Assembly (NCBI GenBank): GCA_964479005.1
Contig: CAYZJA010000002.1
Coordinates: 160,001-224,000 of the forward strand
Length of the DNA stretch: 64,000 nt
Direction of reading: 5' to 3'
From: an uncultured Candidatus Saccharibacteria bacterium
GTDB taxonomy: Bacteria; Patescibacteriota; Minisyncoccia; UBA6257
The notes beneath the pieces were generated by a model. It had not been told where the DNA came from, did no database searches, and worked only from the letters and a program-made list of their open reading frames with translations. The translations under genes were made by a program, and so were the position numbers. Positions 12,130 through 32,798 of the stretch are shown here, piece by piece (within the stretch, counting starts at the first letter, position 1; every line of letters begins with the position of its first letter).

Positions 12130-12175
<46 letters not shown>

Positions 12176-15980: not shown

Positions 15981-16013
<33 letters not shown>

Positions 16014-16173
16014 CACTCCAAGATTAGGTATCGTTTCCCATTTATGGGAGTGAGATTCCTGGAAGATGACCAGGTTGATAGGCTCTAGGTGGAAGTCCAG
16101 TAATGGATTAAGCCGAGGAGTACTAATTATCAAAGCAACTTTCCTATCTTTAGTGAAAAGAAATATTTTAAAA

Positions 16174-16286
16174 TTCCGCTGGTGTTTTACTTAATTATGG
16201 TCCACCTCTTCCCATTCCGAACAGAGAAGTGAAAGTAATTAAGCCCGATGATACTCTTTTGGGGAAAGTAGGGTATGCCAGCGGTT
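16174..16286 (+). rRNA. rrf: 5S rRNA.
   Basis: CCGCTGG..GGTCCACCTCTTCCCATTCCGAACAGAGAAGTGAAAG..GTAGGGTATGCCAGCGG aligns with bacterial 5S. It is followed by a T-run. Confidence 0.85.
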
Positions 16287-17891: not shown

Positions 17892-18968
17892 ATGTTTAAG
17901 ACTGACTCTCTTTTGTTTTTCTCTCTCTTTATTTTGATTGCCCTAGGTTTATTAGTGTTATGGAGCATATCTTCTCAAGATGCTGCTCCTTTTTTTTCTT
18001 TTAAAAAACAACTGGTTCTTTTAGCAATAAGCATTTGCGCGTTTTTTGTTTTTTCCTTTTTGGATTGGCGAATTTTTAATTCTTCCCAATTAATTCTGAT
18101 TTTATATCTTTCATCCTTAGTTTTATTAGTTGTTGTATTGTTTTTTGGAGACAAGAGCAGTGGGGTGGCTGGTTGGTTTAATTTTGGATCATTTAGTTTT
18201 CAGCCAATAGAAATAGCAAAACTTTCTTTAATTATAATATTAGCTAAATATTTATCATCTCGGCATTTGGAAATTTGGCGGTTCCGTCATCTATTAACCT
18301 CTGGGTTTTTTACTTTTACTCCAATGGCTTTAATTGCCGCCCAGCCTGATTTAGGCGGCGCAATGATATTTGGAGCAATTTGGCTTGGTTTGGTATTTAT
18401 AAGTGGAATCAGATTTAAACAAATCATTCTTTTAATTATTATTTTTGGCTTAGTAGCGGGTTTGTCCTGGAGTTTTCTTTTAAAACCTTATCAGCAATCC
18501 CGAATTCTTAGCTTTATATATCCGCAAGAGGATCCTTTAGGGGTTGGATATCATAGAGAACAGGCATTGATTGCCATTGGCTCTGGCAGAATCTTTGGCA
18601 GAGATTTGGGTTGGGGCTCTCAAACAAATTTGCGTTTTTTACCATTAGCCAAGACTGATTTTATTTTTGCCTCTTTAGCTGAATCATTGGGTCTGTTTGG
18701 CGTTTCTGTGTTATTAGTCTGTTTTTTATTTATTTTTTATCGGTTGGTTATTTGGGCTAATACATTTTCTTATAATTTTTGCAAACTTTTTACTATTGGA
18801 TTTACCATTAAATTGTTAATTGGGGTTTTTGTTAATATTGGAATGAATTTGGGACTGCTTCCTATTGTGGGAATAGCCCTACCTTTTATTTCCGCAGGAG
18901 GTTCTCATCTTTTAATAGATTTTATTGGCCTGGGGATAATAAACAGTATGATAATCCACCGTGCCTAA
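17892..18968 (+). CDS. ftsW: SEDS-family cell-wall polymerase/flippase (FtsW/RodA).
   Basis: ~10 TM helices with conserved blocks QPIEIAKL and PLAKTDFIFASLAESLG, plus a C-terminal GGS motif. Confidence 0.8.
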   Translation: MFKTDSLLFFSLFILIALGLLVLWSISSQDAAPFFSFKKQLVLLAISICAFFVFSFLDWRIFNSSQLILILYLSSLVLLVVVLFFGDKSSGVAGWFNFGSFSFQPIEIAKLSLIIILAKYLSSRHLEIWRFRHLLTSGFFTFTPMALIAAQPDLGGAMIFGAIWLGLVFISGIRFKQIILLIIIFGLVAGLSWSFLLKPYQQSRILSFIYPQEDPLGVGYHREQALIAIGSGRIFGRDLGWGSQTNLRFLPLAKTDFIFASLAESLGLFGVSVLLVCFLFIFYRLVIWANTFSYNFCKLFTIGFTIKLLIGVFVNIGMNLGLLPIVGIALPFISAGGSHLLIDFIGLGIINSMIIHRA

Positions 18969-19007: not shown

Positions 19008-20018
19008 ATGAAACAAGTGCAATTTATCAAAATCTCATTATTCATCATTGTTTGCGTATTAGTGCTATTTTTTTATATATTAGTTAATTTTTCATTAACT
19101 TGTCAGGGAGAGTGTAATTTTTCAATAGAGAAAGGAGAAAACTTAAAAAGTATTGCCGATCGTTTAAGAAATCAAAAATTTGTTTCTTCATCTATGTTGT
19201 TTCAATTTTACGTAAAAATAAAAGGTCAGGAAAAAAACATCAAAGCAGGAGATTATTCATTTATTTCACCTTTAACGATTACTAACATAACCGAGATTAT
19301 TACTAATGGAAAATTAACTAATAATAGTTTCCTCATAGCAGAAGGGGAGACAATGTTAGAGATAGAGGAAAATCTAAGAGAAAAAGGTCTAATTGATGCA
19401 TTTTCATCATTAAAAGAATGGAAAACAGGGGATTTTCTTGAAAAAAAATATTTTGATATTTTTTCTGAAATTCCTACCGATGTTTCATTAGAAGGGTATT
19501 TATTTCCTGATTCTTATCATTTACCCCAGGGATTAGAAGAAGAAGAAATTCTTTCAATGTTTATAGATAATTTTGTCGCAAAAACTGAAAATGATTTATT
19601 TTTTGAGATAAAAGAGCAAAAAAGAAGTTTTTATGAAATTTTAACAATGGCTTCTTTGTTGGAAAAAGAAGTTCGCGAAGAAACAGACAAAAGAATGGTA
19701 GCAGATATTCTTTGGAGGAGATTGGATACGAATTTTCTTCTTCAAGTTGACGCAACAATTTGTTATGCTGAATTTCAATCATTTAAAAAATGTTCTCTTA
19801 CCCGTGAATTATTTAAATTAGATTCTCCTTATAACACTTATCTTTATAAAGGATTACCGCCTACACCTATTAATAATCCTGGAATAGAATCAATACAAGC
19901 AGCTTTAAATCCATTAGTAAATGATTATTGGTATTATATGACTGACAGAGAAACAGGAAAAACTATTTTTTCTGAAACATTTGATGAACACTTAGAATCC
20001 CGCGGGAAATATCTATAG
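19008..20018 (+). CDS. mltG: Endolytic murein transglycosylase MltG (YceG-like), full length.
   Basis: N-terminal TM helix and YceG core blocks LASLLEKE, LQVDATICYA, LDSPYNTY, GLPPTPINNPG. Confidence 0.8.
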   Translation: MKQVQFIKISLFIIVCVLVLFFYILVNFSLTCQGECNFSIEKGENLKSIADRLRNQKFVSSSMLFQFYVKIKGQEKNIKAGDYSFISPLTITNITEIITNGKLTNNSFLIAEGETMLEIEENLREKGLIDAFSSLKEWKTGDFLEKKYFDIFSEIPTDVSLEGYLFPDSYHLPQGLEEEEILSMFIDNFVAKTENDLFFEIKEQKRSFYEILTMASLLEKEVREETDKRMVADILWRRLDTNFLLQVDATICYAEFQSFKKCSLTRELFKLDSPYNTYLYKGLPPTPINNPGIESIQAALNPLVNDYWYYMTDRETGKTIFSETFDEHLESRGKYL

Positions 20019-20035
20019 GAATTTTTATTTGATTT

Positions 20036-20076
20036 AAATAGTTTGCTATGATATATTTCAGTTGAGGGACAATATC
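20036..20076. repeat. Near-perfect 14-bp inverted repeat (hairpin) just after the mltG stop, at the left edge of the AT-rich insert.
   Basis: tttcagttgaggga caatatcg tcccctaactgaaa. Confidence 0.5.
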
Positions 20077-20274
20077 GTCCCCTAACTGAAATAACTATTT
20101 AATTAAAAATGGCTAAAAAAACAGAAAAGTTAAATATTACTAAGATCCAAGAAAAGATTACTCGGGCTAATTTGAAATTATTTACTTCTTTGGATTATCA
20201 AAGAATACTTAATTTAGATTATCAGGCGGCAAAGAGAAGCATTACTCGCTACATTCACGCAGGGTTTTTAGTAA

Positions 20275-20760
20275 AAGCCAGAAAAGCTTATCCCATTGAT
20301 TATTAAAAATATCTTGGAAGGGAAAAGTTTGCCAGTGTATGGAGATGGAAAGAATGTTAGAGATTGGATTTATGTTGAAGATCATTGCAAGGCAATAGAT
20401 TTGGTTTTGGATAAAGGTAAATTAAGTGAAGTATATAATATAGGTGGATGTGATGAAAAACAAAATATAGAAATAGTTAAAATTCTTATAGACACAATCA
20501 AAGATTTGATAAAGAAAAATTCGGAATATCAGTTTATTTTAAAAACTGATTTATCTAATATTAATTATAATTTAATAGAATATGTAAAAGACAGAAAGGG
20601 TCATGATAAAAGATATGCTATAGATTCTACAAAAATAAAAAATGAACTCGGGTGGTTTCCCGAAACAAAATTTGGAGATGGTATAGTTAAAACAATTAAA
20701 TGGTATTTTGAAAATCAAGATTGGGTAGAAAACAAGCACGAGCTCTTCAAAAATATATAA
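20275..20760 (+). pseudogene. 5'-truncated fragment of dTDP-glucose 4,6-dehydratase (rfbB-like). Only the C-terminal ~160 aa is present.
   Basis: KPEKLIPLIIKNILEGKSLPVYGDGKNVRDWIYVEDHC aligns with residues ~190-339 of the intact RfbB at 31759-32778. In-frame stops lie immediately upstream at 20269-20274. Confidence 0.65.
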
Positions 20761-20872
20761 ATAATAAAGATACAGTGGCTGACCTTAGTTGTGGTATTGG
20801 AAGAGCACTAACTTTTCTTAAAGTTAAAAAAATTGTCGATTATTATAAAAATTTTAAGGAGGCAAAGAATTT

Positions 20873-22021
20873 ATGAAAATAGGAATATTAACATTTAATT
20901 GGGCACTTAATTATGGAGCTGTATTACAAATGTATACATTATATAAGTATTTGAGTAAAAACAATGAGGTTTTTGTTATAAATTATGTTCCAGATTACTT
21001 AGCTAATCTATATAGTACAAAGATTTTTGATAAACCCTTGAGAATTAAATCAGTAATGGAAAAAATGCTGCAAAAACTAATAAAACATAAACAATATAAA
21101 AAATTCAAGGAATTTATTGATAAAGATATTACTTTAACAGAAAAGGCTAAAAATAGTGCTGAGTTATTAAAAATAATAAACAAACTTGATTTAGTTGCAG
21201 TAGGAAGTGACCAAGTTTGGAATTATGATATAACAAAAGACCATTTAAAGGATTATCTTTTAAGTAATATAAATTGTAACAAGATAAGTTATGCTGCTAG
21301 TCTTGGTAAAAATGAAATTAAAAGTGAAGTTGTAGGTTTATTTAAAAAATCTCTAAAAAATTTTGATTTTGTTTCTTTAAGGGAAGAAGCATCAATAAGT
21401 TATCTTAATAAAATTTGTAAAAGAAAAAATTACAAATTGTGTATTGATCCTGTTTTCTTGTTTAAAAAGGAGGAATGGGAAATCATTGCCGAAAAAAGTT
21501 ATTGTAAATTGCCGAATAAAGAATATATACTTGTATATATGTTAGAATATAATGCTAATTTAATCAAAGTGGCTAAATATTTATCTAAAATATATAATAT
21601 ATCTGTGGTTAGTATAGAAATTCCTTTTTTAACACTTGAAAGAATAACAAAAATGAAAAAAATTAAAAAACTACATGATGTAGGGCCAATAGACTTTGTT
21701 AAATTATTTTCAAATGCAAAATATATTTTAACAAATTCTTTTCATGGGACAGCTTTTTCATTAATTTTTAATAAGCAGTTTATTTCGTTTGCTCATTCAA
21801 CTGTAAATTTAAGGATGGAAAATCTTTTGAAGCTGTATGGTTTAGAAAATAATCAAATAGCTAATTCGTTTAAGGATATTGAAGTTGTTAAAAAAATTTT
21901 AGAAAAGAGTAAACAAGCATATAATAACCAAAATAAAGAAATAGATAATGTTATTGAAGTTTCAAAAAAATATTTAGATGATGTTGTAAAAGAAATTACA
22001 AATAAGAAGGGAAAATTATGA
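20873..22021 (+). CDS. Polysaccharide pyruvyl transferase family protein.
   Basis: N-terminal MKIGILTFNWALNYGAVLQ plus the GSDQVWN block typical of CsaB/WcaK-like pyruvyl transferases. Confidence 0.6.
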   Translation: MKIGILTFNWALNYGAVLQMYTLYKYLSKNNEVFVINYVPDYLANLYSTKIFDKPLRIKSVMEKMLQKLIKHKQYKKFKEFIDKDITLTEKAKNSAELLKIINKLDLVAVGSDQVWNYDITKDHLKDYLLSNINCNKISYAASLGKNEIKSEVVGLFKKSLKNFDFVSLREEASISYLNKICKRKNYKLCIDPVFLFKKEEWEIIAEKSYCKLPNKEYILVYMLEYNANLIKVAKYLSKIYNISVVSIEIPFLTLERITKMKKIKKLHDVGPIDFVKLFSNAKYILTNSFHGTAFSLIFNKQFISFAHSTVNLRMENLLKLYGLENNQIANSFKDIEVVKKILEKSKQAYNNQNKEIDNVIEVSKKYLDDVVKEITNKKGKL

Positions 22022-22105
22022 AAAATAATGTTTTTAAAAAAATTAAGCTAAGTTATTTTATATATTACAATTATTTTTGTCGTAATACTACATGGGGGAA
22101 GAATT

Positions 22106-22369
22106 ATGTTATACTGTTATAATAATACAATTTGCGATATAAGTTCTACTGCTAAAATTATATTAAATGGAAATTTAATTCTCAATTCCTATAAGCTAAA
22201 AAAATCAAAGGCTGAAATGTTACTTAGAATGAAAGAAAATACAAAATTAGTTGTAAATGGAAATTTTTCTTTTTACTACAATTGTGATATTAATATTTTT
22301 GACGGTGGAAGATTAACAATAGGTTCAGGATATGCTAATTGTGGTACACATTGCCTCTTACCCCATTGA
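22106..22369 (+). pseudogene. Possible fragment of a beta-helix acyl/acetyltransferase.
   Basis: An 87-aa ORF with hexapeptide-like N-terminal segments, ending abruptly. The downstream sequence carries further short frames. Confidence 0.25.
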
Positions 22370-22538
22370 GGAAAAAGGTCTTGCAGAAAACAAGCATTGG
22401 AATTTGATGAAGTAGAATACACTCTCAGCTAGCTGGTTAAACCAGACGGAGTAATTGAATATGTGAAAAATACGTTATAGTACTCTTTGTTAATTTGGTA
22501 AATGAAATAAAATATAATTATGTAATGGTGGTGATATT

Positions 22539-23603
22539 ATGAAAATAATACTTTTAGGTGGTACAGGTGCTATAGGAAGTCATTTGACAAACCTTTTATC
22601 TGATAGAAAAGATAAGGTTGTAGTAACTTCTCGAAGCCGTAATGAATCGAAAGAATTAGTTGAATATCGACAAGGAAATGCTAAAAACATAGATTTTTTG
22701 AGTGATGTTTTACGGGAACAATGGGATGCAATCGTTGATTTTATGGTCTATTCTGAAGATGAATTTCGTGAACGGGTAGATTTATTGCTGAGTTCTACAT
22801 CTCAATATGTTTTCTTAAGTTCAGCTAGAGTTTATAATGAAAGTCAAGAGGCTATAACAGAGGAATCTGCAAGACTATTAGATTCTTCTTCTGATTATGA
22901 TTTTTTAGCTACAAGCGAATATTCTCTTTCAAAAGCTCGACAAGAAAATATGTTACGTTCATCAAATAAGAAAAACTGGACTATTGTACGTCCGTATATT
23001 ACGTACAGCGAAAAGCGTTTGCAACTTGGAACTCTAGAAAAAGAAAATTGGCTTTATAGAGCATTACAAGGAAGATCCATAGTATTTTCTGAAGATATTA
23101 GGAACCACTTAACTACTCTAACCTATGGTTTAGATGTGGCAACTGGAATTGCAAGTCTTATCAATAATCCAAAATCTTTTGGGGAAACATATCATATTAC
23201 AAACGAATGTGCATGCAAATGGAGCGATATTTTAAACATATATTTAGATGTATTAGAGAATAAATTAGGAAATCGACCTAAAGTAATCTACCAAAATTTA
23301 CCTGATTTTCTAGTGTGGAATCCAGGAAAATACCCAATTATTTATGATCGGCTTTTTGATAGAAAATTTGATAATACAAAAATCAATAAATTAATAAACG
23401 CAAAAGAATTTGTACAAGTTCAGAATGGATTGAGAAAGAGTTTAAATACGTTTTTAATAAGCCCAGAATTTAGTAGTATAAGCTGGAAAAATGAAGCGAT
23501 AAAAGACAGATACGCTAAAGAAAGAACTCCATTAAAAGAAATCAGTGGCTTTAAGCAAAAAGTTAAATATTTGGCTTTTAGATATTTCATTAAAATTAAA
23601 TAG
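22539..23603 (+). CDS. NAD(P)-dependent epimerase/dehydratase (NmrA-like) family protein.
   Basis: N-terminal Rossmann motif LLGGTGAIGSHL, 354 aa. Confidence 0.55.
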   Translation: MKIILLGGTGAIGSHLTNLLSDRKDKVVVTSRSRNESKELVEYRQGNAKNIDFLSDVLREQWDAIVDFMVYSEDEFRERVDLLLSSTSQYVFLSSARVYNESQEAITEESARLLDSSSDYDFLATSEYSLSKARQENMLRSSNKKNWTIVRPYITYSEKRLQLGTLEKENWLYRALQGRSIVFSEDIRNHLTTLTYGLDVATGIASLINNPKSFGETYHITNECACKWSDILNIYLDVLENKLGNRPKVIYQNLPDFLVWNPGKYPIIYDRLFDRKFDNTKINKLINAKEFVQVQNGLRKSLNTFLISPEFSSISWKNEAIKDRYAKERTPLKEISGFKQKVKYLAFRYFIKIK

Positions 23604-23633
23604 TACAAAATATAAATTTAGAGAGGTAATAAA

Positions 23634-25376
23634 ATGAAAACATATTATACAGACGAAAAAAATATACAGATTTTGATTGCATTACTTAAAGGACATGGAA
23701 TTAGAAAAGTAGTCGCATCTCCTGGAACAGCAAATATGACTTTTGTTAGAAGCCTGCAAAATGATTCTTTTTTTGAAATATACTCATCTATTGACGAGCA
23801 TTCAGCAGCTTATATGGCTTGCGGATTGGCAGCTGAATCAGGAGAACCTGTAGTTTTAAGTTGTACTGGTGCAACTGCATCAAGAAACTATATGCCGGGA
23901 TTGACAGAAGCTTACTATCGTAAATTACCAATACTTTCTGTTACAGCTACTCAAGAAATTGCAAAAGTTGGTCATCACATTCCTCAGGTTTTAGATCGTA
24001 GCTCTATGCCTAATGATGTTGTAAAACACAGTGTTCAACTGCCATTAGTTAAAGATGATACTGATTGGTGGAGTTGTGAGGTTAAGGTAAATAATGCCCT
24101 ATTAGAATTAAGTCGGCATGGAGGCGGACCTGTGCACATTAATTTAAGTATGGATTGTAGATTTTCGTTCAAAACTGTAGAATTACCAAAAGTTCGTGTA
24201 ATTAAGCGCATTAAAACACAATCAAGTGAGTATCCTTCTATGCCTGAAGGTAAAGTTGCGGTATTTGTTGGATCGCATGCAGAAATGACTAAAGATCAAA
24301 TAAGTGCACTTGAACATTTTTGTGAATCCAATAATGCAGTAGTGTTCTGTGACCACACAAGTGGATACAAAGGGAAATATTGTGTTGTTCATTCGCTTAG
24401 TTCTTCTCAAAGACTATCGGACTTTGATGGATTACGCCCTGATTTGTTAATTCATATTGGAGAAATTACCGGAGACTATTCTGTTAGTAGTATAGTTGGA
24501 AAACAGATTTGGAGAGTTAGCGAAGATGGCGAGTTACGAGATACTTATCGTAAACTTCAGTATGTTTTTGAAATGCCCGAACAAGTTTTTTTTAAACATT
24601 ATACTAAAAACGATATAAATAGTGGACTTTATTTACAAGTATGTCGTGATTATCTTGAACAATTGCTCAATAAAATACCAGAACTTCCATTCTCTAATCT
24701 TTGGATAGCAAAAAAAATACATAAGCTAATTCCAGAAAATTCTACTATTCATTTCGCAATTTTAAATAGTCTTCGTTCATGGAATTTTTTTGAATTACCA
24801 AAAACAGTTGAATCTAATTCCAATGTTGGAGGATTCGGAATCGATGGTTGTCTTTCTTCTTTAGTAGGAGCTTCGTTGGCAAAAAAAGATAGATTATATT
24901 TCGGTATCATCGGTGACTTAGCATTCTTTTATGATATAAATTCTATAGGTAATCGTCATGTAGGAAATAATTTACGAATTCTTCTAGTCAATAACGGAAA
25001 AGGCACAGAATTTAGAAATTTCAATCAGCCAGCGGCACAATTTGGAGAATCAGCAGATGAATTTATAGCAGCCGGAGGCCATTTTGGAAACAAGTCACAA
25101 ACCCTAGTAAAAAATTATAGCGAGAGTCTTGGTTTTGAATATTTATCTGCATCAAATAAAGCAGAGTTTGAGCAAGTCTATGAAAGATTTCTAACTGACC
25201 AGATGCTCGATAAACCTATATTATTAGAGGTATTTACAAATAGTGTAGATGAAAGTAAGGCTTTGGAAATGATAACATCAATTAGTACAACAGTTAAAAT
25301 GAAAACGAAAGATGTTATAAGAAATGTTGTAGGTAAGAATAATATTAGAAAAATCAAAAAATTTATTAAAGGTTAA
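23634..25376 (+). CDS. Thiamine-pyrophosphate-dependent enzyme of the acetolactate synthase/pyruvate decarboxylase fold, possibly a YerE-like branched-sugar synthase.
   Basis: 580 aa. N-terminal Pyr domain and a C-terminal TPP-binding motif GDLAFFYD..NN(G). It sits inside a glycan cassette. Confidence 0.5.
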   Translation: MKTYYTDEKNIQILIALLKGHGIRKVVASPGTANMTFVRSLQNDSFFEIYSSIDEHSAAYMACGLAAESGEPVVLSCTGATASRNYMPGLTEAYYRKLPILSVTATQEIAKVGHHIPQVLDRSSMPNDVVKHSVQLPLVKDDTDWWSCEVKVNNALLELSRHGGGPVHINLSMDCRFSFKTVELPKVRVIKRIKTQSSEYPSMPEGKVAVFVGSHAEMTKDQISALEHFCESNNAVVFCDHTSGYKGKYCVVHSLSSSQRLSDFDGLRPDLLIHIGEITGDYSVSSIVGKQIWRVSEDGELRDTYRKLQYVFEMPEQVFFKHYTKNDINSGLYLQVCRDYLEQLLNKIPELPFSNLWIAKKIHKLIPENSTIHFAILNSLRSWNFFELPKTVESNSNVGGFGIDGCLSSLVGASLAKKDRLYFGIIGDLAFFYDINSIGNRHVGNNLRILLVNNGKGTEFRNFNQPAAQFGESADEFIAAGGHFGNKSQTLVKNYSESLGFEYLSASNKAEFEQVYERFLTDQMLDKPILLEVFTNSVDESKALEMITSISTTVKMKTKDVIRNVVGKNNIRKIKKFIKG

Positions 25377-25390
25377 TATAAAATTAAAAT

Positions 25391-25708
25391 ATGAAAATAC
25401 TTACCAAAATTAAATCTATAGGAAAGCACTTGCCTAAACCAATTAAGCATATTATTAGACCTTTCTACATTAAAGTAAAAGGGAAAGAAAGAATAATAGT
25501 ATACAAAGAATTACTACAAGATACAGCTGAATTTCACAATAGAATTGATGATTCTAGAATTAATTATCAAGAGCTCGATAAAATTGATAGAATACTTAAA
25601 CAATTAAATCCTTTAGATGTGAGAAATTATATGTATTTAATAGTTTCTCTTTTTGGTTCGAAATGTTATTATAGATTAAGTAAGTTGAAACATAGTCTAA
25701 ATAATTAA
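25391..25708 (+). CDS. Hypothetical protein.
   Basis: 105-aa basic ORF with no recognisable domain. Confidence 0.3.
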   Translation: MKILTKIKSIGKHLPKPIKHIIRPFYIKVKGKERIIVYKELLQDTAEFHNRIDDSRINYQELDKIDRILKQLNPLDVRNYMYLIVSLFGSKCYYRLSKLKHSLNN

Positions 25709-25803
25709 TTCACTTTATCCCTATGTTTTAAATAAGGTGAGAGAAGCTTTTTGTAATTATTGTATTCTTATTGTTTCTCTTAAACTAATGTTGATAAAAA
25801 ACT

Positions 25804-26007
25804 ATGAATCCACAGCAATTGTACCATAAACAGTATGCCGAGCATGCCTTAATAATTAATCATGAATCTTTTTTCAAGAAAACCTTTCATAAGTTTAATG
25901 TCCATAGAAGAAATGTAGCAATTTCTTTACTAGAGAGAGGAAATAATTTACTTGATATTGGTTGTGGAGAAGGGTCACTTTTATTAAAGGCAAGAAATAA
26001 ATATTAA
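25804..26007 (+). pseudogene. N-terminal fragment of a class I SAM-dependent methyltransferase, truncated at the insert/mltG-duplicate junction.
   Basis: It ends just after motif I LLDIGCGEGSL. The stop codon lies exactly where mltG homology begins (26006). Confidence 0.5.
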
Positions 26008-26809
26008 AGCGGGGGATTATCGATTTATTTCGCCGCTAACAATTGCCAAAATAACCGAGGCTATTACTAATGGAAAATTAAGCAATAATCATAGTTTTCT
26101 CATAACAGAAGGGGAAACAATGCTGGAGATAGAGGAAAATTTAAAAGAGAAAGGTTTAATTGACAAATCTGCCTCATTAAAAGAATGGAAAATAGGAGAT
26201 TTTCTTGAGAAAAAACATTTTGATATTTTTTCTCAAATTCCTTCAGATGCTTCATTAGAGGGCTTTTTATTTCCTGATTCTTATCATTTACCCCAAGGAT
26301 TGGAAGAAAAAGAAATTCTTTCAATACTTATTGATAATTTTGTCGCAAAAGCCCGTGGTGAGTTTAGTCAAACCACTAAAAATGATTTATTTTTTGATAT
26401 TAAGGAGCAAAAAAGAAGTTTTTATGAAATTTTAATAATAGCTTCTTTGTTGGAAAAAGAAGTTCGTGTAGAGACAGATAAAAGAATGGTGGCAGATATT
26501 CTTTGGAGGAGATTGGATACAAATTTTCCTCTTCAGGTAGATGCAACAATATGCTATGCAAAATATGAATCATTTAAAAATTGTTCTCTTACCCGTGAAT
26601 TATTTAAATTAGATTCTCCGTACAATACTTATATTTATAAAGGATTGCCTCCTACGCCTATTAATAATCCCGGAATAGAATCAATACAAGCGGCTTTAAA
26701 TCCATTGGCAAATGATCATTGGTATTATATGACTGACAGAAAAACAGGAAGAACAGTCTTTTCTGAAACATTTGACGAGCATTTAGAATTTCGCGGAAAA
26801 TATCTATAA
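26006..26809 (+). pseudogene. 5'-truncated duplicate of mltG, corresponding to residues ~80-336 of the 19008-20018 copy.
   Basis: Roughly 85-90% identical by eye to 19243-20018, with in-frame indels. Homology starts abruptly at 26006 with an in-frame stop upstream (25985), and ends at the stop codon. Confidence 0.7.
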
Positions 26810-26830
26810 AAACCAAAAACAGAGAATATT

Positions 26831-27916
26831 ATGAAAATTTTTATAATTTTAGGTACTCGTCCAGAGATTATTAAAATGTCTCCTGTTATAAGGGAATGTA
26901 TTAAAAAAAGGCTGAATTTTTCGATTTTGCATACAAATCAGCATTACTCGGAAAATTTGGATAAGGTATTTTTTAAAGAATTAAATTTACCTCGACCAAA
27001 ATATAATCTGAATGTTGGTTCTGGAACTCATGCTGAGCAAACAGCGAAAATTCTTGTTGGAGTGGAAAAGATTTTACTAAAAGAAAGGCCAGATATTGTT
27101 TTAGTTGAGGGCGATACTAATACAGTATTAGCAGGCGCTTTAGCAGCTGCTAAACTTCATATTAAAGTAGGGCATATTGAAGCGGGATTGAGGTCTTATT
27201 ATAGGGAAATGCCAGAAGAAATTAATAGAATTTTAGTTGATCATTGTTCTGATTTGCTTTTTACTCCAACAAAAGAAACGAAAGACATACTCTTAAATGA
27301 AGGGATTCCTCGTAATAAAATATTTGTTACAGGCAATACTATAATTGACGCTGTTTTTCAGAATCTTAAATTAGCTGAGAAAAAATCAAAAATATTGGAA
27401 AAACTTAATTTATCAAAAAGAGGATATTTTTTAATGACTGCCCATCGCGCAGAGAATGTTGATAATGAAAGTAGGCTAAGAGGTATTTTAAAAGGTGTTG
27501 AGATGACTTCTGAAAAATTTTCTTTGCCTGTAATTTATCCCATTCATCCGAGAACAAGAAAGATGATGAAAAAATTTAAACTTAAGGTTTCAAATAAGGT
27601 TAGATTACTCGAACCAATAGGCTATTTGGATTTTTTAAAACTTGAAAATAGTGCTAAACTAATACTTACTGATTCAGGGGGAATACAAGAAGAAGCTTGC
27701 GCAATGCGAGTTCCTTGCGTAACTTTGAGAGATAATACTGAAAGGCCAGAAACAATAGATGTAGGTAGTAATCTGTTGTCAGGTGCTAATCCTTTAAGAA
27801 TCTTAAAATCTGTTTCAAAAATGATGAATAAAAACAGAAAATGGAAAAATCCATTTGGTTCTGGCAAAACAGCGGAAAAAATAATCAAAATTATCCAGAA
27901 AAATGAAAAAGCATAA
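26831..27916 (+). CDS. wecB: UDP-N-acetylglucosamine 2-epimerase (non-hydrolysing).
   Basis: MKIFIILGTRPEIIKM..HIEAGLRS..IQEEA: all WecB/MnaA blocks are present. Confidence 0.85.
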   Translation: MKIFIILGTRPEIIKMSPVIRECIKKRLNFSILHTNQHYSENLDKVFFKELNLPRPKYNLNVGSGTHAEQTAKILVGVEKILLKERPDIVLVEGDTNTVLAGALAAAKLHIKVGHIEAGLRSYYREMPEEINRILVDHCSDLLFTPTKETKDILLNEGIPRNKIFVTGNTIIDAVFQNLKLAEKKSKILEKLNLSKRGYFLMTAHRAENVDNESRLRGILKGVEMTSEKFSLPVIYPIHPRTRKMMKKFKLKVSNKVRLLEPIGYLDFLKLENSAKLILTDSGGIQEEACAMRVPCVTLRDNTERPETIDVGSNLLSGANPLRILKSVSKMMNKNRKWKNPFGSGKTAEKIIKIIQKNEKA

Positions 27917-28066
27917 GGCAATATGTGTAATAGGCCTTGGTTATATTGGTTTGCCAACTGGCTGTTGTTTAGCTAAAGCTGGTTATGAAGTAATCGGCTT
28001 TTATTTAAATGAAGAGAAAATTAAGACTCTAAAATCGAAATTAAAAATTAACCAAGATGGATCTTA
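27903..28066 (+). pseudogene. 54-aa N-terminal remnant of a UDP-sugar dehydrogenase (WecC/Ugd-like).
   Basis: KAICVIGLGYIGLPTG is the NAD-binding N-terminus. The frame stops after 54 codons and overlaps the flippase start. Confidence 0.55.
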
Positions 28067-29538
28067 AAGATACAATCAAAAATATTGTTTTAAACCCAAG
28101 CGCTTTTTTTCTTAAAAACTCAGGAACTAAGCAGACTATTGCTAAAAACACTTTTTGGTTGGCAATAGCGGAAGGTATATCCAAGTTTTTAAAATTAATT
28201 TTAATTATTTATATTGCCCGAATTTTAGGGGCTACTGAATACGGAAAATTCACTTTTGCTTTAGCTTTTGTTTCTTTATTTGCCATTTTTTCTGATTTTG
28301 GTGTTTCTTCAATCACTACTCGCGAACTTGCCCGGGAAAAAGAGAAAGAAAAAGAATTTCCCAATATTCTTTCTTTAAAACTCGTTTTGGGTATAGGAGC
28401 TTTATTTTTAATTTGTCTTGGTTCTTTTTTTATTACCACTGACCCCTTGATTCGCGCGATAATCTGGATTTTAGGAATTTATATTATAGTAAGCAGTTTC
28501 TCGGGGATTATTTATGCTTTTCTAAGGGCTTGTCAGCAAATGGAATACGAGGCCTGGACTAAAATTCTACAAGCGATGGTTGTAACCGGGGCTGGTTTTT
28601 TTGTTCTTTTTAATTTTCCCTCGGTTCAAAGTTTAAGTTTAGCTTATTTGTTTGCCGTCTCAATTGCTTTGATTGCTATATTGACTTTTTTTCACTTCAA
28701 GATTTATCAACTGAAATTAAGTTTTAATAAAAATATATGGCGAAATGTTTTATTAATGTCTTGGCCTCTGGCTTTAGCAGGGATATTCGGAACGATTTAT
28801 AGCCAAACTGATTCGATAATGATGGGTTATTTTGGCCAAATTACCCAAGTTGGTTGGTATAATGCCGCTTATAAAATTATCGGAGCAACTTTGATTCCAG
28901 TAGGTCTTATCTCCATAAGTTTTTTTCCACTATTTAGTAAATTATTCAAAGAATCAAAAGAAAAACTTCAGAAATCTTGGGATTATTATATGCAGTTGAT
29001 GATTTTTTTATCCGTGCCTTTAATAGTAGGAGGTATAGTTTTAGCCCCAAAAATTATTGATTTTGTTTACAATTCAAGTTATTTTCCATCAATTTTAGCC
29101 TTTCAAATTTTACTAATAATGGCAGCACTTTCTTATATTTGCAATCCTTTTGGCCAGGCATTAATTGTTTCAAATCAGCAAAAAAGACTTTTTTGGATAA
29201 CTTTATCAGGAGCAATCGTCAATGTTGGGCTAAACTTAATTCTAATTCCAAAATACAGCCTTTATGGAGCAGCTTTCACCACAGTTGTTACTTTGTTTTT
29301 AATTCTCTTTTTGCTTTACAAATTCACGTCAAAATTTACTCCAATCAAACCATTTAATTTAAAATTTCTTTTTAGTTTTCTTGGCGCTACTTTTTCTAGT
29401 ATTCTAATGTATCTTGTAATTTCTCAACCGAATGTTTATAATTTAAATATCTTTCTTTCCATCCTTATAGGAAGTTTAATCTACTTTTTGTGTTTTTTTC
29501 TTCTTAGAAAAATCACAAATTTGCTTAAATTTTTATAA
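28057..29538 (+). CDS. wzx: Oligosaccharide flippase (Wzx / polysaccharide biosynthesis protein family).
   Basis: 493 aa with ~12-14 TM helices, MATE-like polysaccharide-transporter topology. Confidence 0.65.
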   Translation: MDLKDTIKNIVLNPSAFFLKNSGTKQTIAKNTFWLAIAEGISKFLKLILIIYIARILGATEYGKFTFALAFVSLFAIFSDFGVSSITTRELAREKEKEKEFPNILSLKLVLGIGALFLICLGSFFITTDPLIRAIIWILGIYIIVSSFSGIIYAFLRACQQMEYEAWTKILQAMVVTGAGFFVLFNFPSVQSLSLAYLFAVSIALIAILTFFHFKIYQLKLSFNKNIWRNVLLMSWPLALAGIFGTIYSQTDSIMMGYFGQITQVGWYNAAYKIIGATLIPVGLISISFFPLFSKLFKESKEKLQKSWDYYMQLMIFLSVPLIVGGIVLAPKIIDFVYNSSYFPSILAFQILLIMAALSYICNPFGQALIVSNQQKRLFWITLSGAIVNVGLNLILIPKYSLYGAAFTTVVTLFLILFLLYKFTSKFTPIKPFNLKFLFSFLGATFSSILMYLVISQPNVYNLNIFLSILIGSLIYFLCFFLLRKITNLLKFL

Positions 29539-29603
29539 CATATGAAAAATTTTATATTCAATCAATTTATGGGATACCATATAATTATTAATAAAAAAGT
29601 AAA

Positions 29604-30341
29604 ATGAAAGGCATAGTTTTAGCAGGTGGCACGGGTTCAAGGTTAAAACCTTTAACAAATGTTACAAACAAGCATCTTTTACCTGTTGGTAAGTACCCAA
29701 TGATTTTTTATCCGATTTATCAATTGAAACAATCAGGTATTACGGAAATTCTTATTGTAACTAGTAGAGGACATATGGGAGACGTTATTGAACTTCTTGG
29801 AAGTGGGTATGAATTTGGTGTTCAGTTTACTTTTAAAGTTCAAGATCAAGCAGGAGGAATTGCTCAGGCGCTAGGTTTAGCAGAGCATTTTGTTGACGGG
29901 GATCGTTGCGTTGTTATTCTTGGAGATAATATTTTTGAAAATGATATTACTCCTTTTGTTGAATCATTTGAAAAACAAGAAAAAGGAGCAAAAATACTTC
30001 TAAAAGAAGTTTCAGATCCCCAGAGATTTGGTGTAGCTGAGCTTAGAGATAGAAAAATTATTTTGATTGAAGAAAAACCAAAACGACCAAAAAGCAATTT
30101 TGCCGTTACTGGTATTTATATGTATGACTCTAAAGTATTTGATATTATTAAAACAATAAAACCTTCGGAAAGAGAGGAACTTGAAATAACGGATGTAAAT
30201 AATAATTATATTCAACAAGGCACGTTAACTTATGATATTTTAAAAGGTTGGTGGACTGATGCAGGGACTTCCGAATCTTTATTTCGAGCAAATGAATTTT
30301 GTAAAGATATAATCTTGAATTTTAAAAATGGAAAAGTTTAA
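29604..30341 (+). CDS. rfbA: Glucose-1-phosphate thymidylyltransferase (short form).
   Basis: MKGIVLAGGTGSRLKPLT nucleotidyltransferase motif, with rfbCDB directly downstream. Confidence 0.8.
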   Translation: MKGIVLAGGTGSRLKPLTNVTNKHLLPVGKYPMIFYPIYQLKQSGITEILIVTSRGHMGDVIELLGSGYEFGVQFTFKVQDQAGGIAQALGLAEHFVDGDRCVVILGDNIFENDITPFVESFEKQEKGAKILLKEVSDPQRFGVAELRDRKIILIEEKPKRPKSNFAVTGIYMYDSKVFDIIKTIKPSEREELEITDVNNNYIQQGTLTYDILKGWWTDAGTSESLFRANEFCKDIILNFKNGKV

Positions 30342-30900
30342 AGTAATTAAAACTCCAATTAAAGATCTTGTAATAATAGAAACGAAAATATTCAAAGATG
30401 ATAGGGGATTTTTTATAGAAAGTTATAATTCAAAAGATTTTACTGATATTGGAGTTAATGGTCACTTTGTGCAAGATAATCATTCGATGTCAAAAAAAGG
30501 AGTTTTGAGAGGGTTACATTTTCAGTTTAAACATTCTCAAGGGAAGCTTGTTCGGGTAATTTCAGGAAAGGTATTTGATGTTGCAGTTGATTTAAGGTTA
30601 AACTCGTCAACTTTTGGGAAATGGTATGGAGTGGAACTTTCTGGTAATAATGGACTTCAATTTTATATACCTTCTGACTTTGCTCACGGTTTTCTTACCC
30701 TTCAAGAAAATACACATTTCTTTTATAAATGTACTGATTTTTACTGTCCTGATGATGAATTGGGAATTATATGGGATGATAAAGATATAGGTATCCAGTG
30801 GCCTTTATCTCAAGTTGAGAAGATTATAATTTCCAAGAAAGACAGTCAGTTACCCCCTTTTAGTGAAGTGAGGAGGATATTAGAAAAAGAAAATTCTTGA
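30328..30900 (+). CDS. rfbC: dTDP-4-dehydrorhamnose 3,5-epimerase.
   Basis: Cupin-fold RmlC blocks GLHFQ and KLVRVISGKVFDVAVDLR. Confidence 0.85.
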   Translation: MEKFKVIKTPIKDLVIIETKIFKDDRGFFIESYNSKDFTDIGVNGHFVQDNHSMSKKGVLRGLHFQFKHSQGKLVRVISGKVFDVAVDLRLNSSTFGKWYGVELSGNNGLQFYIPSDFAHGFLTLQENTHFFYKCTDFYCPDDELGIIWDDKDIGIQWPLSQVEKIIISKKDSQLPPFSEVRRILEKENS

Positions 30901-31766
30901 AGAAAATTATGAAAGTTTTAATACTTGGTGCAAATGGTCAATTGGGGAGTGAATTTAAGACTTTTTTGAAAGATAAAGCAGAAGTTTTTGCTTTTAATCA
31001 TAATGAGCTTGATATCCTTGATTTTAAAGGACTTATCAATAAATTCTTTGAATTATCTCCCGATGTTATCATAAATTGTGCAGCTTATACTAAAGTTGAC
31101 CAAGCAGAGGAAGAAGAAAATCTTGCTTATCAAGTAAATGCTGTAGGGGCAAAAAATATTTCCTTTGCTTCTTTTAAAATCAAGGCAAAAGTTGTTTATT
31201 TTAGCACTGATTATGTTTTTGATGGCACTCAAAATTCACCCTATAATGAATTTGACAAGCCCAACCCATTATCTATTTATGGTAGGTCAAAACTTTTTGG
31301 AGAAGAGTTTACAAAACAGTTTAATCCGAACCACTTAATTTTAAGAATTTCCTGGCTTTATGGAATAAATGGTTCAAACTTTGTAAAGAGTATTATAAGA
31401 CTTGCAAAAGAAAAAGGTGAATTAAAAGTTGTGAATGATCAATTTGGGACACCTACCTATACGCTTGATGTAGCAAAGCAAACTTGGAAACTTATTCAAG
31501 ATGATAATGTTGGTTTGTATCATTCTTCAAATACTGAGCAAACGACTTGGTTTGAATTTGCAAAAAAGATTGTTGAGCAACTTAACCTTGATGCAAAAGT
31601 CTTTCCGATAAAGACTGATAAGTTTCCAGTATTAGCAAAAAGACCAAGCTTTTCTGTACTGGAGGACTATTTACTTAAAATTGAAAATAAAAATATAATG
31701 CGTTCTTGGGAAGAAGCGTTTAACGATTTCGTAAACAAATATAAAAAGAAACTTATAAATGAATAA
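30897..31766 (+). CDS. rfbD: dTDP-4-dehydrorhamnose reductase.
   Basis: MKVLILGANGQLG, short-chain NAD(P)-binding protein of RmlD length (289 aa). Confidence 0.8.
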   Translation: MKKIMKVLILGANGQLGSEFKTFLKDKAEVFAFNHNELDILDFKGLINKFFELSPDVIINCAAYTKVDQAEEEENLAYQVNAVGAKNISFASFKIKAKVVYFSTDYVFDGTQNSPYNEFDKPNPLSIYGRSKLFGEEFTKQFNPNHLILRISWLYGINGSNFVKSIIRLAKEKGELKVVNDQFGTPTYTLDVAKQTWKLIQDDNVGLYHSSNTEQTTWFEFAKKIVEQLNLDAKVFPIKTDKFPVLAKRPSFSVLEDYLLKIENKNIMRSWEEAFNDFVNKYKKKLINE

Positions 31767-32778: not shown

Positions 32779-32798
32779 TAAAAATTTACAACTTAAAC

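What the first reader, a model, noticed from the sequence alone, without database searches (positions are those of the whole stretch)
19243..26809. ~6.8-kb very AT-rich glycan cassette inserted behind mltG, flanked by a diverged mltG duplicate and by truncated gene remnants
The 3' ~0.78 kb of mltG (19243-20018) is repeated at 26006-26809 at ~85-90% nucleotide identity by eye, with an in-frame 3-nt and an 18-24-nt indel. The copy stops exactly at the stop codon. It begins abruptly at 26006, where it truncates a methyltransferase gene after motif I (25804-26007).

At the other side, a 14-bp hairpin (20036-20076), a small ORF (20109-20306) and the 3' third of a second rfbB (20275-20760) precede the intact genes. 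These are pyruvyl transferase, epimerase, TPP enzyme and an 11-kDa hypothetical. The segment is visibly more AT-rich than its flanks.

The diverged, not identical, repeat suggests acquisition from a related lineage. The likely route is homologous recombination in mltG on one side and illegitimate joining on the other, leaving three pseudogene stubs.
Basis: seen in the sequence. Interest (0 to 1): 0.65.

Follow-up and report, generated by a model that had tools for sequence, protein, structure and literature searches.

The report
Recombination scars in a surface-glycan island
A leftover, beheaded second copy of the cell-wall gene mltG marks where pieces of sugar-coat gene clusters from related strains were spliced into an uncultured ultra-small bacterium; this is a well-known kind of scar at variable glycan loci, so it is instructive rather than surprising.

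Summary
mltG (19008-20018) is intact. Its last 779 nt recur at 26004-26809, with 87.7% identity, in-frame 3-nt and 24-nt indels, and homology ending at the stop codon. The copies diverged under purifying selection (dN/dS 0.14, dS 0.49), so they are orthologues from two lineages, not a local duplication.

Several separately assembled contigs from other samples and runs are 100% identical across both junctions, which argues against a chimera.

The methyltransferase stub is real. It is colinear with a ~240-aa gene in relatives up to 26003 and joins mltG at an AATAT microhomology that creates its stop codon.

The "cassette" is not one unit. It is the mltG-proximal part of an ~18-kb hypervariable glycan island (20019-37994) and is built from at least six pieces with different nearest relatives. 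These include five gene stubs and a 3.5-kb epimerase-TPP module that is 97% identical to a strain whose backbone is 86% identical.

A relative (L013) has an independent mltG 3' fossil with a different breakpoint.

The best reading is recombination with homology on one side only and an illegitimate joint on the other, as at the meningococcal galE1/galE2 capsule island. The direction of transfer is unresolved. AT-richness applies only to parts of the region.

The parts
17892..18968 (+). ftsW, part of the conserved left flank (PGb-ftsW-mltG) shared by all relatives
   Evidence: Pfam FTSW_RODA_SPOVE. It is 88-96% aa identical in L007-L031 and 92-99% nt identical to L030.
19008..20018 (+). Intact mltG (YceG-family lytic transglycosylase, 336 aa) with a hydrophobic N-terminus; left anchor of the island
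   Evidence: Pfam YceG 1.1e-71, covering profile positions 1-272 of 275. Full-length orthologues are present in 13 or more related loci.
19240..20018 (+). Repeat copy 1 (codons 78-336 of mltG)
   Evidence: It is 88-91% nt identical to the relatives, consistently closer than copy 2 along its whole length.
20019..20057 (+). Diverged version of the promoter-like spacer that follows the mltG stop in most relatives
   Evidence: TTGATT-17-TATATT with a TG. Homology to L024, L026, L013b, L007 and L029 runs to ~20030-20038. Function is inferred only.
20054..20093 (+). Strong hairpin (16 pairs), unique in the window; possibly the mltG terminator
   Evidence: RNA fold -27.4 kcal/mol, z = -5.7, 0 of 200 shuffles as stable. 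No other copy in the window or the loci. It has no T-run, so the terminator scan did not call it.
20109..20306 (+). 65-aa ORF: the 5' stub (about 53 codons) of an AbiEi-like antitoxin gene, continued out of frame into rmlB-derived sequence
   Evidence: Its only homologue is the N-terminus (residues 2-58) of the 204-aa protein P0242, E = 8.7e-6. P0242 aligns end to end with the AbiEi-like protein of L030, E = 3e-12. In L030 that protein sits directly behind mltG next to an AbiEii toxin gene. Direct BLASTP of the stub against L030 AbiEi gave nothing.
20268..20732 (+). Internal fragment of a dTDP-glucose 4,6-dehydratase gene (rmlB codons ~200-320); the ORF is read as 20296-20760
   Evidence: TIGR01181 4.7e-50, matching profile positions 195-319 of 321. 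It is 88% nt identical to rmlB of L007 and L029 but only 50% aa identical to the resident rmlB at 31759-32778. The junctions were read.
20873..22021 (+). Polysaccharide pyruvyl transferase; intact; the lowest GC in the region (23.2%)
   Evidence: Pfam PS_pyruv_trans 1.3e-36. The closest non-self homologues are 84% and 76% identical (metagenomic), then Thermosipho at 64-68%. GC.
22025..25513 (+). Recently exchanged 3.5-kb module: o87 (22106-22369), SDR epimerase (22539-23603), MenD-like TPP enzyme (23634-25376) and the first 41 codons of o105
   Evidence: It is 95-97% nt identical to L032, where it lies behind the homologue of the gene at 39632-40846. The backbone there is only 86% identical. 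It is 92% identical to L033 and 89% to L034. The boundaries were read.
25391..25708 (+). o105: a chimeric ORF with no family
   Evidence: The first 41 codons are shared with L032 and the rest are not. No Pfam or NCBIfam hit.
25804..26007 (+). 5' stub (67 of ~240 codons) of a SAM methyltransferase; its stop codon is created by the junction
   Evidence: It is 61% aa and 80% nt identical to the full-length gene in L028 and L013, and colinear with it up to 26003.
25999..26003 (.). Junction J3: AATAT microhomology between the methyltransferase gene and mltG (10 of 12 over AGAAATAAATAT against AGAAAAGAATAT)
   Evidence: Three-way comparison of the window, the L028 methyltransferase and the mltG of L007, L010 and L017.
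26004..26809 (+). mltG copy 2: a 5'-truncated fossil (codons 78-336) lacking the membrane anchor; frame intact; first ATG at 26120
   Evidence: Pfam YceG 1.3e-53, matching profile positions 85-271. Frame analysis. dN/dS against copy 1 is 0.137. Substitutions unique to its own branch number 11 non-synonymous and 10 synonymous, so there is no strong sign of decay.
26831..27916 (+). wecB (UDP-GlcNAc 2-epimerase), intact; travels with copy 2
   Evidence: Pfam Epimerase_2 3.9e-117. The stretch 26153-28023 is colinear with L023 at 84.7% nt, and 25986-27894 with L020 at 74%.
27903..28067 (+). 5' stub (about 46 codons) of wecC (UDP-ManNAc dehydrogenase); junction J4 lies at ~28042-28054
   Evidence: TIGR03026 4.8e-12, matching profile positions 2-42 of 413. 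L023 has the full 421-aa gene. Alignment.
28057..32778 (+). wzx flippase and rmlA-C-D-B: the next stratum of the island
   Evidence: The stretch 28054-32732 is 87.9% nt identical to L030 and L017, starting 3 nt before the wzx ATG. Pfam hits.
37995..39614 (+). First gene of the conserved right flank (539 aa, GFO_IDH_MocA-type oxidoreductase); the island is 20019-37994
   Evidence: It is 90% aa identical in L026, where a single 331-aa gene separates it from mltG. It is 78% identical in L020 (mltG-wecB-331aa-this gene).

Best explanation
The region is the mltG-proximal third of an ~18-kb strain-variable surface-glycan island in a Patescibacteria (Saccharibacteria-labelled) genome. The island lies between two conserved genes, mltG on the left and the 37995 oxidoreductase on the right.

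Mechanism. New gene sets enter from related lineages by recombination that uses homology on one side only and an illegitimate, microhomology-guided joint on the other. This is homology-facilitated illegitimate recombination (HFIR), plausibly after natural transformation. Each such event cuts a gene in the recipient (resident) genome and leaves a stub.

The mltG fragment. It is the scar of one such event. I favour the left-anchored version. DNA carrying ...ftsW-mltG(copy 1) plus downstream genes, ending inside a methyltransferase gene, paired with the resident ftsW/mltG. Its far end then joined at AATAT inside the resident mltG at codon 78. That pushed the resident 3' end (copy 2, with its wecB) downstream as a dead fragment.

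Other junctions. Earlier and later events of the same kind, together with exchange of the 3.5-kb epimerase-TPP module, produced three more junctions: AbiEi stub | rmlB fragment, the C-terminal break in rmlB, and wecC stub | wzx.

What is shown: the repeat, the junction sequences, the different affinities of the pieces, the variability of the island, and a second independent case. What is inferred: the recombination pathway, the order of events and the direction of transfer.

Functional outcome (inferred): a strain-specific glycan with pyruvylation and an unknown TPP-dependent sugar modification. Copy 2 lacks its membrane anchor and is most likely non-functional.
For: - The copies are diverged orthologues: 87.7% nt, dS 0.49, dN/dS 0.137.
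- Junction J3 is a clean splice of two recognisable genes at a 5-nt microhomology.
- Relatives share PGb-ftsW-mltG but carry different gene sets behind mltG. L026 has a near-empty site.
- Five stubs or fragments flank pieces with different nearest relatives.
- The 22025-25513 module is 97% identical to L032, against an 86% backbone.
- L013 shows an independent case: a full mltG, then an ATPase and a phosphoesterase, then a 445-nt mltG 3' fragment 90.3% identical to its own full copy, then wzx.
- The island has no integrase or transposase.
- Both outer flanks are closest to the same relative, L030 (ftsW 92-99%, wzx-rmlB 87.9%). Identity to L030 drops sharply at the ftsW/mltG border. That fits an import entering from the left and needs only short donor DNA.
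- Published precedents: the meningococcal cps island, with intact galE1 and a 5'-truncated resident remnant galE2 made by illegitimate recombination (PMC5349592); displaced 3' ends in T6SS and Rhs loci attributed to HFIR (PMC5361080); and natural competence of Saccharibacteria (PMC10633639).
Against: - Direction is not proven. Copy 1, not copy 2, is the closer of the two to every in-clade relative, including L030 (90.4% against 85.6%). If copy 2 were the resident allele one might expect the reverse.
- The copy-2 piece is truncated at both ends (J3 and J4), so at least one more event is needed under any model.
- mltG is itself mosaic among the relatives, which blurs every phylogenetic argument.
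- Competence, RecA-dependent pairing and the order of events were not tested and cannot be tested here.
- The taxonomic label rests only on the record titles of two related MAGs.
Confidence: 0.5

Rival explanations
1. Right-anchored import. The resident locus was mltG(copy 1)-hairpin-AbiEi...-methyltransferase-.... An incoming fragment began by chance inside the donor's mltG at codon 78 and carried wecB-wecC and further genes. It recombined by homology somewhere downstream, and its left end joined illegitimately inside the resident methyltransferase gene. On this reading copy 2 is the imported DNA and the AT-rich genes are what is left of the old locus.
For: - Copy 2 is the outlier to all in-clade relatives and carries a 24-nt insertion seen at that position only in the distant L020. 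Copy 1 groups with the relatives of the backbone.
- Copy 2-wecB-wecC' is colinear with L023 and L020, which share its short mltG-wecB spacer type.
- The same junction geometry (5' stub | 3' fragment) is expected.
Against: - It needs donor fragments long enough to reach a right-hand anchor 2-12 kb away, repeatedly.
- It needs the last import (wzx-rml) to come, by coincidence, from the same lineage as the left flank.
- The published analogues describe the truncated copy as the resident one.
Confidence: 0.3
2. Campbell-type integration. A circular molecule carrying an mltG 3' fragment plus the cassette integrated by a single crossover within mltG. That would duplicate the homologous segment and make both copies chimeric.
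For: A full gene plus a 5'-truncated direct repeat flanking an insert is the classical product of a single crossover. The methyltransferase|mltG joint could be the point where the circle closed.
Against: - There is no switch of affinity along the repeat. In all 12 sliding windows scored, copy 1 is the closer copy to the relatives. Informative sites favour copy 1 or tie in all 13 windows examined.
- No plasmid or replication genes are present in the insert.
Confidence: 0.05
3. Local duplication of the mltG 3' end within this lineage, followed by divergence in place.
For: Direct orientation. The reading frame of copy 2 is still open.
Against: - dS of 0.49 with dN/dS of 0.14 means most of the divergence accrued while both sequences were under selection as working genes.
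- No relative shares the duplication at this breakpoint.
- Copy 2 is contiguous with a wecB-wecC arrangement found behind full-length or contig-cut mltG in other lineages.
Confidence: 0.03
4. Assembly chimera that joins two co-occurring strains through the shared mltG sequence.
For: - This is a metagenome-derived contig.
- Logan contigs break exactly at exact-match stretches shared by the two copies (26582/26590).
- 6 of 23 related contigs start inside mltG.
Against: - JGI contig Ga0079367_1003767, from another sample, is 100% identical over 19610-28439.
- Logan contig SRR3085435_49496, from another run and made by another assembler, begins in the copy-1 3' end and ends inside copy 2 by its gene table.
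- An NCBI contig of 551 kb carries the same proteins.
- J3 lies ~580 nt upstream of the longest shared exact word and joins two unrelated genes, which a k-mer mis-join would not produce.
Confidence: 0.03

Closest known systems
Neisseria meningitidis capsule (cps) island, Regions D/D' (galE1 intact, galE2 truncated remnant) - PMC5349592
   Same: Both are horizontally acquired glycan-synthesis islands. Each is bracketed by an intact copy of a housekeeping gene and a 5'-truncated, diverged remnant of the same gene (galE2 keeps its last 615 nt; here mltG keeps its last 806 nt). In both, the remnant is explained by illegitimate recombination into the recipient's gene, rfb/rml genes travel along, and GC is lower in parts.
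   Different: The anchor gene differs (mltG, a lytic transglycosylase, rather than galE), and so does the phylum. The repeats here are direct, not inverted, so inversion of the island is not expected. The island here is a multi-layer patchwork with five stubs rather than one block captured whole. No serology or function is known.
Homology-facilitated illegitimate recombination (Acinetobacter, S. pneumoniae, P. stutzeri, E. coli) - PMC3240628 and the references cited in PMC5361080
   Same: There is a one-sided homologous anchor plus an illegitimate joint at a short microhomology (here AATAT). The result is an insertion accompanied by truncation of a recipient gene.
   Different: The process is inferred from sequence only. 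No experiment has been done in this organism, and the anchor side is undetermined.
C-terminal displacement arrays of Rhs/CDI toxins and T6SS effector-immunity modules - PMC5361080
   Same: A conserved upstream part serves as the anchor. The old 3' end is pushed downstream and persists as an orphan. Repeated events stack strata. The pattern recurs independently in a relative (L013).
   Different: No toxin or immunity logic applies. The displaced mltG fragment has no plausible selective value. Only one orphan per locus has been seen so far.
Variable O-antigen and capsule loci flanked by conserved genes (E. coli galF-gnd, pneumococcal dexB-aliA) - my own knowledge
   Same: A Wzx flippase, rml genes and glycosyltransferases lie between two conserved genes. 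Gene content differs from strain to strain, the loci are mosaic and contain pseudogene remnants.
   Different: The flanking genes are different. The organism is a reduced-genome, probably epibiotic bacterium whose glycan has never been characterised.

Membership tests
MltG/YceG lytic transglycosylase (copy 1, 19008-20018) | Full YceG domain | tested here: met
   Pfam PF02618 1.1e-71, covering profile positions 1-272 of 275.
MltG/YceG lytic transglycosylase (copy 1, 19008-20018) | N-terminal membrane anchor | tested here: met
   The hydrophobic stretch ISLFIIVCVLVLFFYILVNF at residues 9-28 was read from the translation. No topology predictor was run.
MltG/YceG lytic transglycosylase (copy 2, 26004-26809) | Full YceG domain and membrane anchor | tested here: not met
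   Only profile positions 85-271 are present. Codons 1-77, including the anchor, are absent. The frame is closed by a stop at 25985-25987 and the first ATG is at 26120. It is a gene fragment, not a family member in the functional sense.
Homology-facilitated illegitimate recombination product | Illegitimate joint at a short microhomology between unrelated sequences | tested here: met
   AATAT is shared by the methyltransferase gene and mltG at 25999-26003 (10 of 12 when extended).
Homology-facilitated illegitimate recombination product | Homologous anchor on the other side of the insert | tested here: inconclusive
   Conserved flanks exist: ftsW-mltG at 85-99% and the 37995 gene at 88-90%. There is an identity break at the ftsW/mltG border, but the crossover itself cannot be located.
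Homology-facilitated illegitimate recombination product | DNA uptake and RecA pathway active in the organism | not testable with these tools
   Natural competence is shown for cultivated Saccharibacteria (PMC10633639), not for this organism.
Integrase-borne genomic island / integrative element | Site-specific recombinase gene and short identical att repeats | tested here: not met
   No integrase or transposase family was found among the island ORFs of 50 aa or more that were scanned. The repeats are 0.8 kb long and 12% diverged.
Wzx/Wzy-type variable surface-glycan locus | Flippase, nucleotide-sugar genes and glycosyltransferases between conserved flanks, with strain-variable content | tested here: met
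   Present are wzx (Polysacc_synt 2.4e-42), rmlACDB, wecB, and GT2 and GT4 genes. Gene content differs in about 8 locus types among the relatives. No Wzy polymerase was looked for.
AbiEi antitoxin (65-aa ORF, 20109-20306) | Recognisable AbiEi domain or a significant match to a member | tested here: inconclusive
   No Pfam or NCBIfam hit and no BLASTP match to the L030 AbiEi-like protein. The link is transitive only: stub to the P0242 N-terminus at E = 8.7e-6, and P0242 to the L030 protein at E = 3e-12. The L030 protein itself hits AbiEi_4 only at 6e-4, but lies next to an AbiEii gene at 6e-15.
MenD (SEPHCHC synthase) for the TPP enzyme 23634-25376 | Score above the equivalog cut-off | tested here: not met
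   TIGR00173 scores 166.8 bits against a cut-off of 244.2. It is MenD-like but not MenD. Its genomic context is glycan loci.

The most novel reading that the evidence does not exclude
In these naturally transformable, ultra-small bacteria the 3' end of mltG may serve as a habitual landing pad. Serial one-sided-homology imports would stack strata of glycan, toxin-antitoxin and other accessory genes behind it, much like Rhs/T6SS displacement arrays. The fossil mltG fragments and stubs would then give a readable record of successive surface-glycan switches in uncultured populations. The conserved promoter-like spacer behind mltG would drive whatever gene set lands there.
Probability: 0.25. Interest if true: 0.45.

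Novelty: new member of a known kind. Interest (0 to 1): 0.3.

Why it matters
The region shows, at base-pair resolution, how surface-glycan gene sets are exchanged among uncultured Patescibacteria. Conserved flanking genes act as anchors, joints form at microhomologies, small modules (3.5 kb at 97% identity) move between strains that are only 86% identical, and truncated genes are left behind.

For annotators it is a warning. The 229-aa 'YceG' ORF, the 154-aa 'epimerase', and the 65-, 67-, 54- and 105-aa ORFs are fragments or chimeras, not genes.

For biology it points to strong diversifying pressure on the cell surface of these epibionts, from phage or from host recognition. The principle is already established in pathogens, however.

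Tried and rejected
- In-place duplication was rejected on dN/dS, on its absence from relatives, and on copy 2 being colinear with L023 and L020.
- A Campbell-type crossover was tested by sliding-window affinity of both copies to 13 relatives. No switch was seen.
- Relaxed selection on copy 2 was tested by counting substitutions unique to each sequence. Copy 2 has 11 non-synonymous and 10 synonymous changes, within or just above the range of functional copies. This is too little data to date the truncation.
- Direct identification of the 65-aa ORF failed with Pfam, NCBIfam, the 5.8-billion-protein word search and BLASTP against L030 AbiEi. Only the exhaustive HMMER search gave one informative hit.
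- o87 and o105 matched no family at useful E-values. My impression that o87 is an acetyltransferase stub was not confirmed and is dropped.
- I looked for the hairpin as a repeated element. It has no other copy.
- I looked for a donor with rmlB next to pyrT. The closest pyrT context (L035) has a GT4 gene between them, and L007 and L029 have no pyrT.
- I tried to polarise the direction from flank identities. mltG is itself mosaic among the relatives, so the result is suggestive only.
- The terminator and promoter consensus scans were at chance level overall.

Full report
**1. What is in the sequence**

The window comes from a low-GC genome (32.3%). It has a 23S rRNA interrupted by LAGLIDADG-bearing inserts. 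It is identical to JGI metagenome contig Ga0111033_1189580. The two species-representative genomes that carry a close mltG are titled 'uncultured Candidatus Saccharibacteria bacterium', so I treat the organism as a Patescibacteria (CPR) bacterium on that basis only.

All genes from 16.5 to 41 kb lie on the + strand. Their order is:
- a peptidoglycan-binding protein;
- ftsW;
- mltG (19008-20018, Pfam YceG 1e-71);
- the stretch in question;
- wecB, wzx, rmlA-C-D-B, glycosyltransferases and methyltransferases.

**2. The repeat**

Positions 19240-20018 recur at 26004-26809. Over 263 aligned codons the identity is 87.7% nt and 85.9% aa. Copy 2 has one extra codon and a 24-nt insertion, both in frame. 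The similarity ends exactly at the two stop codons.

dS is 0.49 and dN/dS is 0.137, similar in all three thirds of the repeat. Nearly all the divergence therefore accrued while both sequences were working genes. They are orthologues from two lineages, not a duplicate that decayed in place.

Copy 2 lacks codons 1-77, including the hydrophobic N-terminus. Its frame is closed upstream by a stop, and its first ATG is at 26120. It cannot be a membrane-anchored transglycosylase. Substitutions unique to copy 2 (11 non-synonymous, 10 synonymous) are at most slightly enriched for amino-acid changes compared with full-length relatives. The truncation is therefore young relative to the divergence, or the data are too few to tell.

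**3. The junctions**

*J3.* The 67-aa ORF at 25804-26007 is the 5' end of a ~240-aa SAM methyltransferase that is intact in relatives L028 and L013 (61% aa, 80% nt). The window follows that gene ('...GEGSLLLKARNKY') up to 26003. It then continues with mltG ('IKAGDY...').
- The two parents share AATAT at the crossover, 10 of 12 when extended.
- The stub's TAA stop is created by the joint.

*J1.* At ~20265-20270 an unrelated sequence meets an rmlB fragment (20268-20732).
- The fragment is 88% nt identical to rmlB of L007 and L029, but only 50% aa identical to the resident rmlB.
- Its last ~10 codons are unrelated again, so it is an internal fragment.
- The 65-aa ORF reads across J1 out of frame.
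- The native part of that ORF (about 53 codons) matches the N-terminus of a 204-aa protein (E = 8.7e-6). That protein aligns end to end with the AbiEi-like antitoxin lying directly behind mltG in L030, next to an AbiEii toxin (E = 3e-12).
- The link is transitive. Direct searches found nothing.

*J4.* At ~28042-28054 the first ~46 codons of wecC (NDP-sugar dehydrogenase N-terminus, 4.8e-12) are joined a few bases before the wzx start codon.

*The hairpin.* It is real but lies at 20054-20093 (-27.4 kcal/mol, z = -5.7) and is unique.

**4. The 'cassette' is a patchwork**

Nearest relatives differ piece by piece.

| Piece | Nearest relative |
|---|---|
| rmlB fragment | L007 and L029, 88% nt |
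| pyrT | metagenomic proteins at 84% and 76%, then Thermosipho at 64-68% |
| 22025-25513 (o87, SDR epimerase, MenD-like TPP enzyme, first 41 codons of o105) | L032, 95-97% nt |
| methyltransferase stub | L028 and L013 |
| 26004-28045 (mltG', wecB, wecC') | L023, 84.7% nt, which has the full wecC; L020, 74% |
| 28054-32732 (wzx, rmlACDB) | L030 and L017, 87.9% nt |

In L032 the epimerase-TPP module sits behind the homologue of the gene at 39632-40846, and the backbone there is only 86% identical. That module has therefore moved recently between lineages and between positions.

GC is not uniformly low:
- cassette as a whole: 28.8%;
- non-island genes: 32.2 +/- 3.1%;
- pyrT: 23.2%;
- o105: 24.2%;
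- epimerase: 31.0%;
- TPP enzyme: 33.6%.

**5. Context in relatives**

I examined 23 metagenomic and 2 genomic loci with an mltG that is 61-96% identical. The trio PGb-ftsW-mltG is conserved in all that reach that far, but what follows mltG differs:
- a 44% wecB allele with other genes: L007, L008, L009, L012, L019, L022;
- a different first gene: L010, L011, L014, L015, L024, L027;
- wzx directly: L028;
- a toxin-antitoxin pair and then wzx: L017, L030;
- the 76-84% wecB allele: L020, L023;
- a single 331-aa gene: L026, L016.

In L026 and L020 the next conserved gene is the homologue of 37995-39614 (90% and 78% aa). The variable island in the window is therefore 20019-37994. It contains no integrase or transposase.

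L013 carries an independent parallel. It has a full mltG, an AAA_14/DUF4143 ATPase, a phosphoesterase, then the last 445 nt of mltG (90.3% identical to its own full copy, no indels), and then wzx. The breakpoint and the insert are both different, but the geometry is the same.

**6. Is it an artefact?**

- JGI contig Ga0079367_1003767, from another sample, is 100% identical over 19610-28439.
- Logan contig SRR3085435_49496, from another run and another assembler, begins in the copy-1 3' end. By its gene table it runs through the cassette and ends inside copy 2. I did not align its DNA to the window.
- The same proteins occur on an NCBI contig of 551 kb.
- Short-read Logan contigs end at exact words shared by the two copies (26582/26590), as expected for a true repeat.
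- J3 joins two unrelated genes about 580 nt away from those words.

I cannot map reads, but a chimera is unlikely.

**7. Mechanism**

The evidence shows recombination between diverged lineages at a variable glycan island, with at least one microhomology-mediated illegitimate joint. The known process with this outcome is homology-facilitated illegitimate recombination. A homologous anchor on one side holds the incoming strand, and the other end joins at a microhomology.

Two orientations fit.

Donor DNA ...ftsW-mltG1-...-methyltransferase' pairs in ftsW/mltG, and its far end joins inside the resident mltG. Copy 2-wecB is then the old resident DNA.

(b) *Right-anchored.* A donor fragment starting inside mltG (copy 2-wecB-wecC...) pairs downstream, and its left end joins inside the resident methyltransferase gene.

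Evidence for (a):
- Both outer flanks are closest to the same relative, L030.
- Identity to L030 collapses exactly at the ftsW/mltG border (92% to ~70%).
- The donor fragments required are short.
- It has published precedent.

Evidence for (b):
- Copy 2 is the outlier to every in-clade relative, and copy 1 is the closer copy along the whole repeat.
- The 24-nt insertion of copy 2 occurs at that position only in the distant L020.

I put (a) at about 0.5 and (b) at about 0.3. The general statement (one-sided-homology import, scar, patchwork island) I put at about 0.85.

A Campbell-type single crossover predicts a switch of affinities within the repeat, and none is seen. Natural competence of cultivated Saccharibacteria makes transformation a plausible route, but this is inference.

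**8. Function**

The intact genes in the stretch are a pyruvyl transferase, an SDR, a MenD-like TPP enzyme and wecB.
- The TPP enzyme scores 166.8 bits against TIGR00173, below the cut-off of 244.2, so it is not MenD.
- It is 65-80% identical across several phyla. In each neighbourhood I looked at (L032-L034) it lies among glycan-synthesis genes.

Together these genes should decorate a strain-specific surface glycan. This is inferred from family membership only.

The fragments are best treated as pseudogenes or chimeric ORFs. They are the 229-aa YceG ORF, the 154-aa dehydratase ORF, and the 65-, 67-, 54- and probably 105-aa ORFs.

**9. Verdict**

It is wrong in treating the stretch as one AT-rich cassette, and it is incomplete on the number of stubs and on the extent of the island.

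This is a new example, in an unusual phylum, of a well-known kind of scar at variable glycan loci. It is of moderate to low interest, with some value as a documented case and as an annotation warning.

Noticed in passing
window 11573-16170: The 23S rRNA match (11573-15141) is ~640 nt longer than the Rfam model and contains a LAGLIDADG endonuclease ORF (13819-14310). A second LAGLIDADG ORF (15243-15707) lies in a 726-nt stretch (15113-15838) that relative L010 lacks. This suggests a second intron-like insert near the 23S 3' end, with rRNA-like GC resuming at ~15840-16170 before the 5S gene (16177-16284).
   Followed up: partly
window 20019-20057; L007, L008, L010, L012, L014, L016, L024, L027, L029, L013 (3675-3720), L028 (315-352), L030 (~6205-6247): A conserved ~45-nt promoter-like spacer (TTTTTAATTTAGGTTTATTTGTGATATTATAAAATTAAATAAAAA) follows the mltG stop in most relatives, whatever gene comes next. 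In L030 it is retained upstream of wzx, behind the inserted toxin-antitoxin pair. Copy 2, L020, L023 and L026 instead have a spacer of only 6-21 nt.
   Followed up: partly
L013 1-3700; L017 and L030 behind mltG: L013a and L017/L030 share a third type of post-mltG spacer. In both, it is followed by non-glycan, defence-like modules: an AAA_14/DUF4143 ATPase plus a metallophosphoesterase in L013, and AbiEi/AbiEii in L017 and L030. The site behind mltG therefore also collects selfish or defence genes.
   Followed up: partly
window 23634-25376 (with 22539-23603): The MenD-like TPP enzyme, paired with an SDR, is unusually conserved across phyla: 80% to Defluviitalea, 83% to a Cloacimonadota MAG, and 65-69% to Sulfurimonas and Sulfurovum. 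In the three neighbourhoods examined (L032-L034) it lies among glycan-synthesis genes, beside a pyruvyl transferase in L032 and here. It may be an uncharacterised, widely transferred sugar-modification pair.
   Followed up: partly
window 27903-28067: There is a 54-aa ORF that is the 5' stub of wecC (UDP-ManNAc dehydrogenase). It overlaps the end of wecB and runs into the wzx start.
   Followed up: yes
L030 3655-3838 (between ftsW and mltG): The closest relative by backbone has an extra ~190-nt, comparatively GC-rich insert between ftsW and mltG, and a very different mltG 5' end (~70% identical). mltG itself is therefore mosaic among strains.
   Followed up: no
L023, L024, L026, L027, L028, L029 (contig starts): Six of 23 related metagenome contigs begin inside the 3' part of mltG. 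Assemblies evidently tend to break there, either because strains share mltG but differ downstream or because further hidden mltG duplicates exist.
   Followed up: no
L025 578-1587: The mltG of this relative matches in two frames (aa 1-146 and aa 146-336). This is either a frameshifted mltG or a sequencing error.
   Followed up: no
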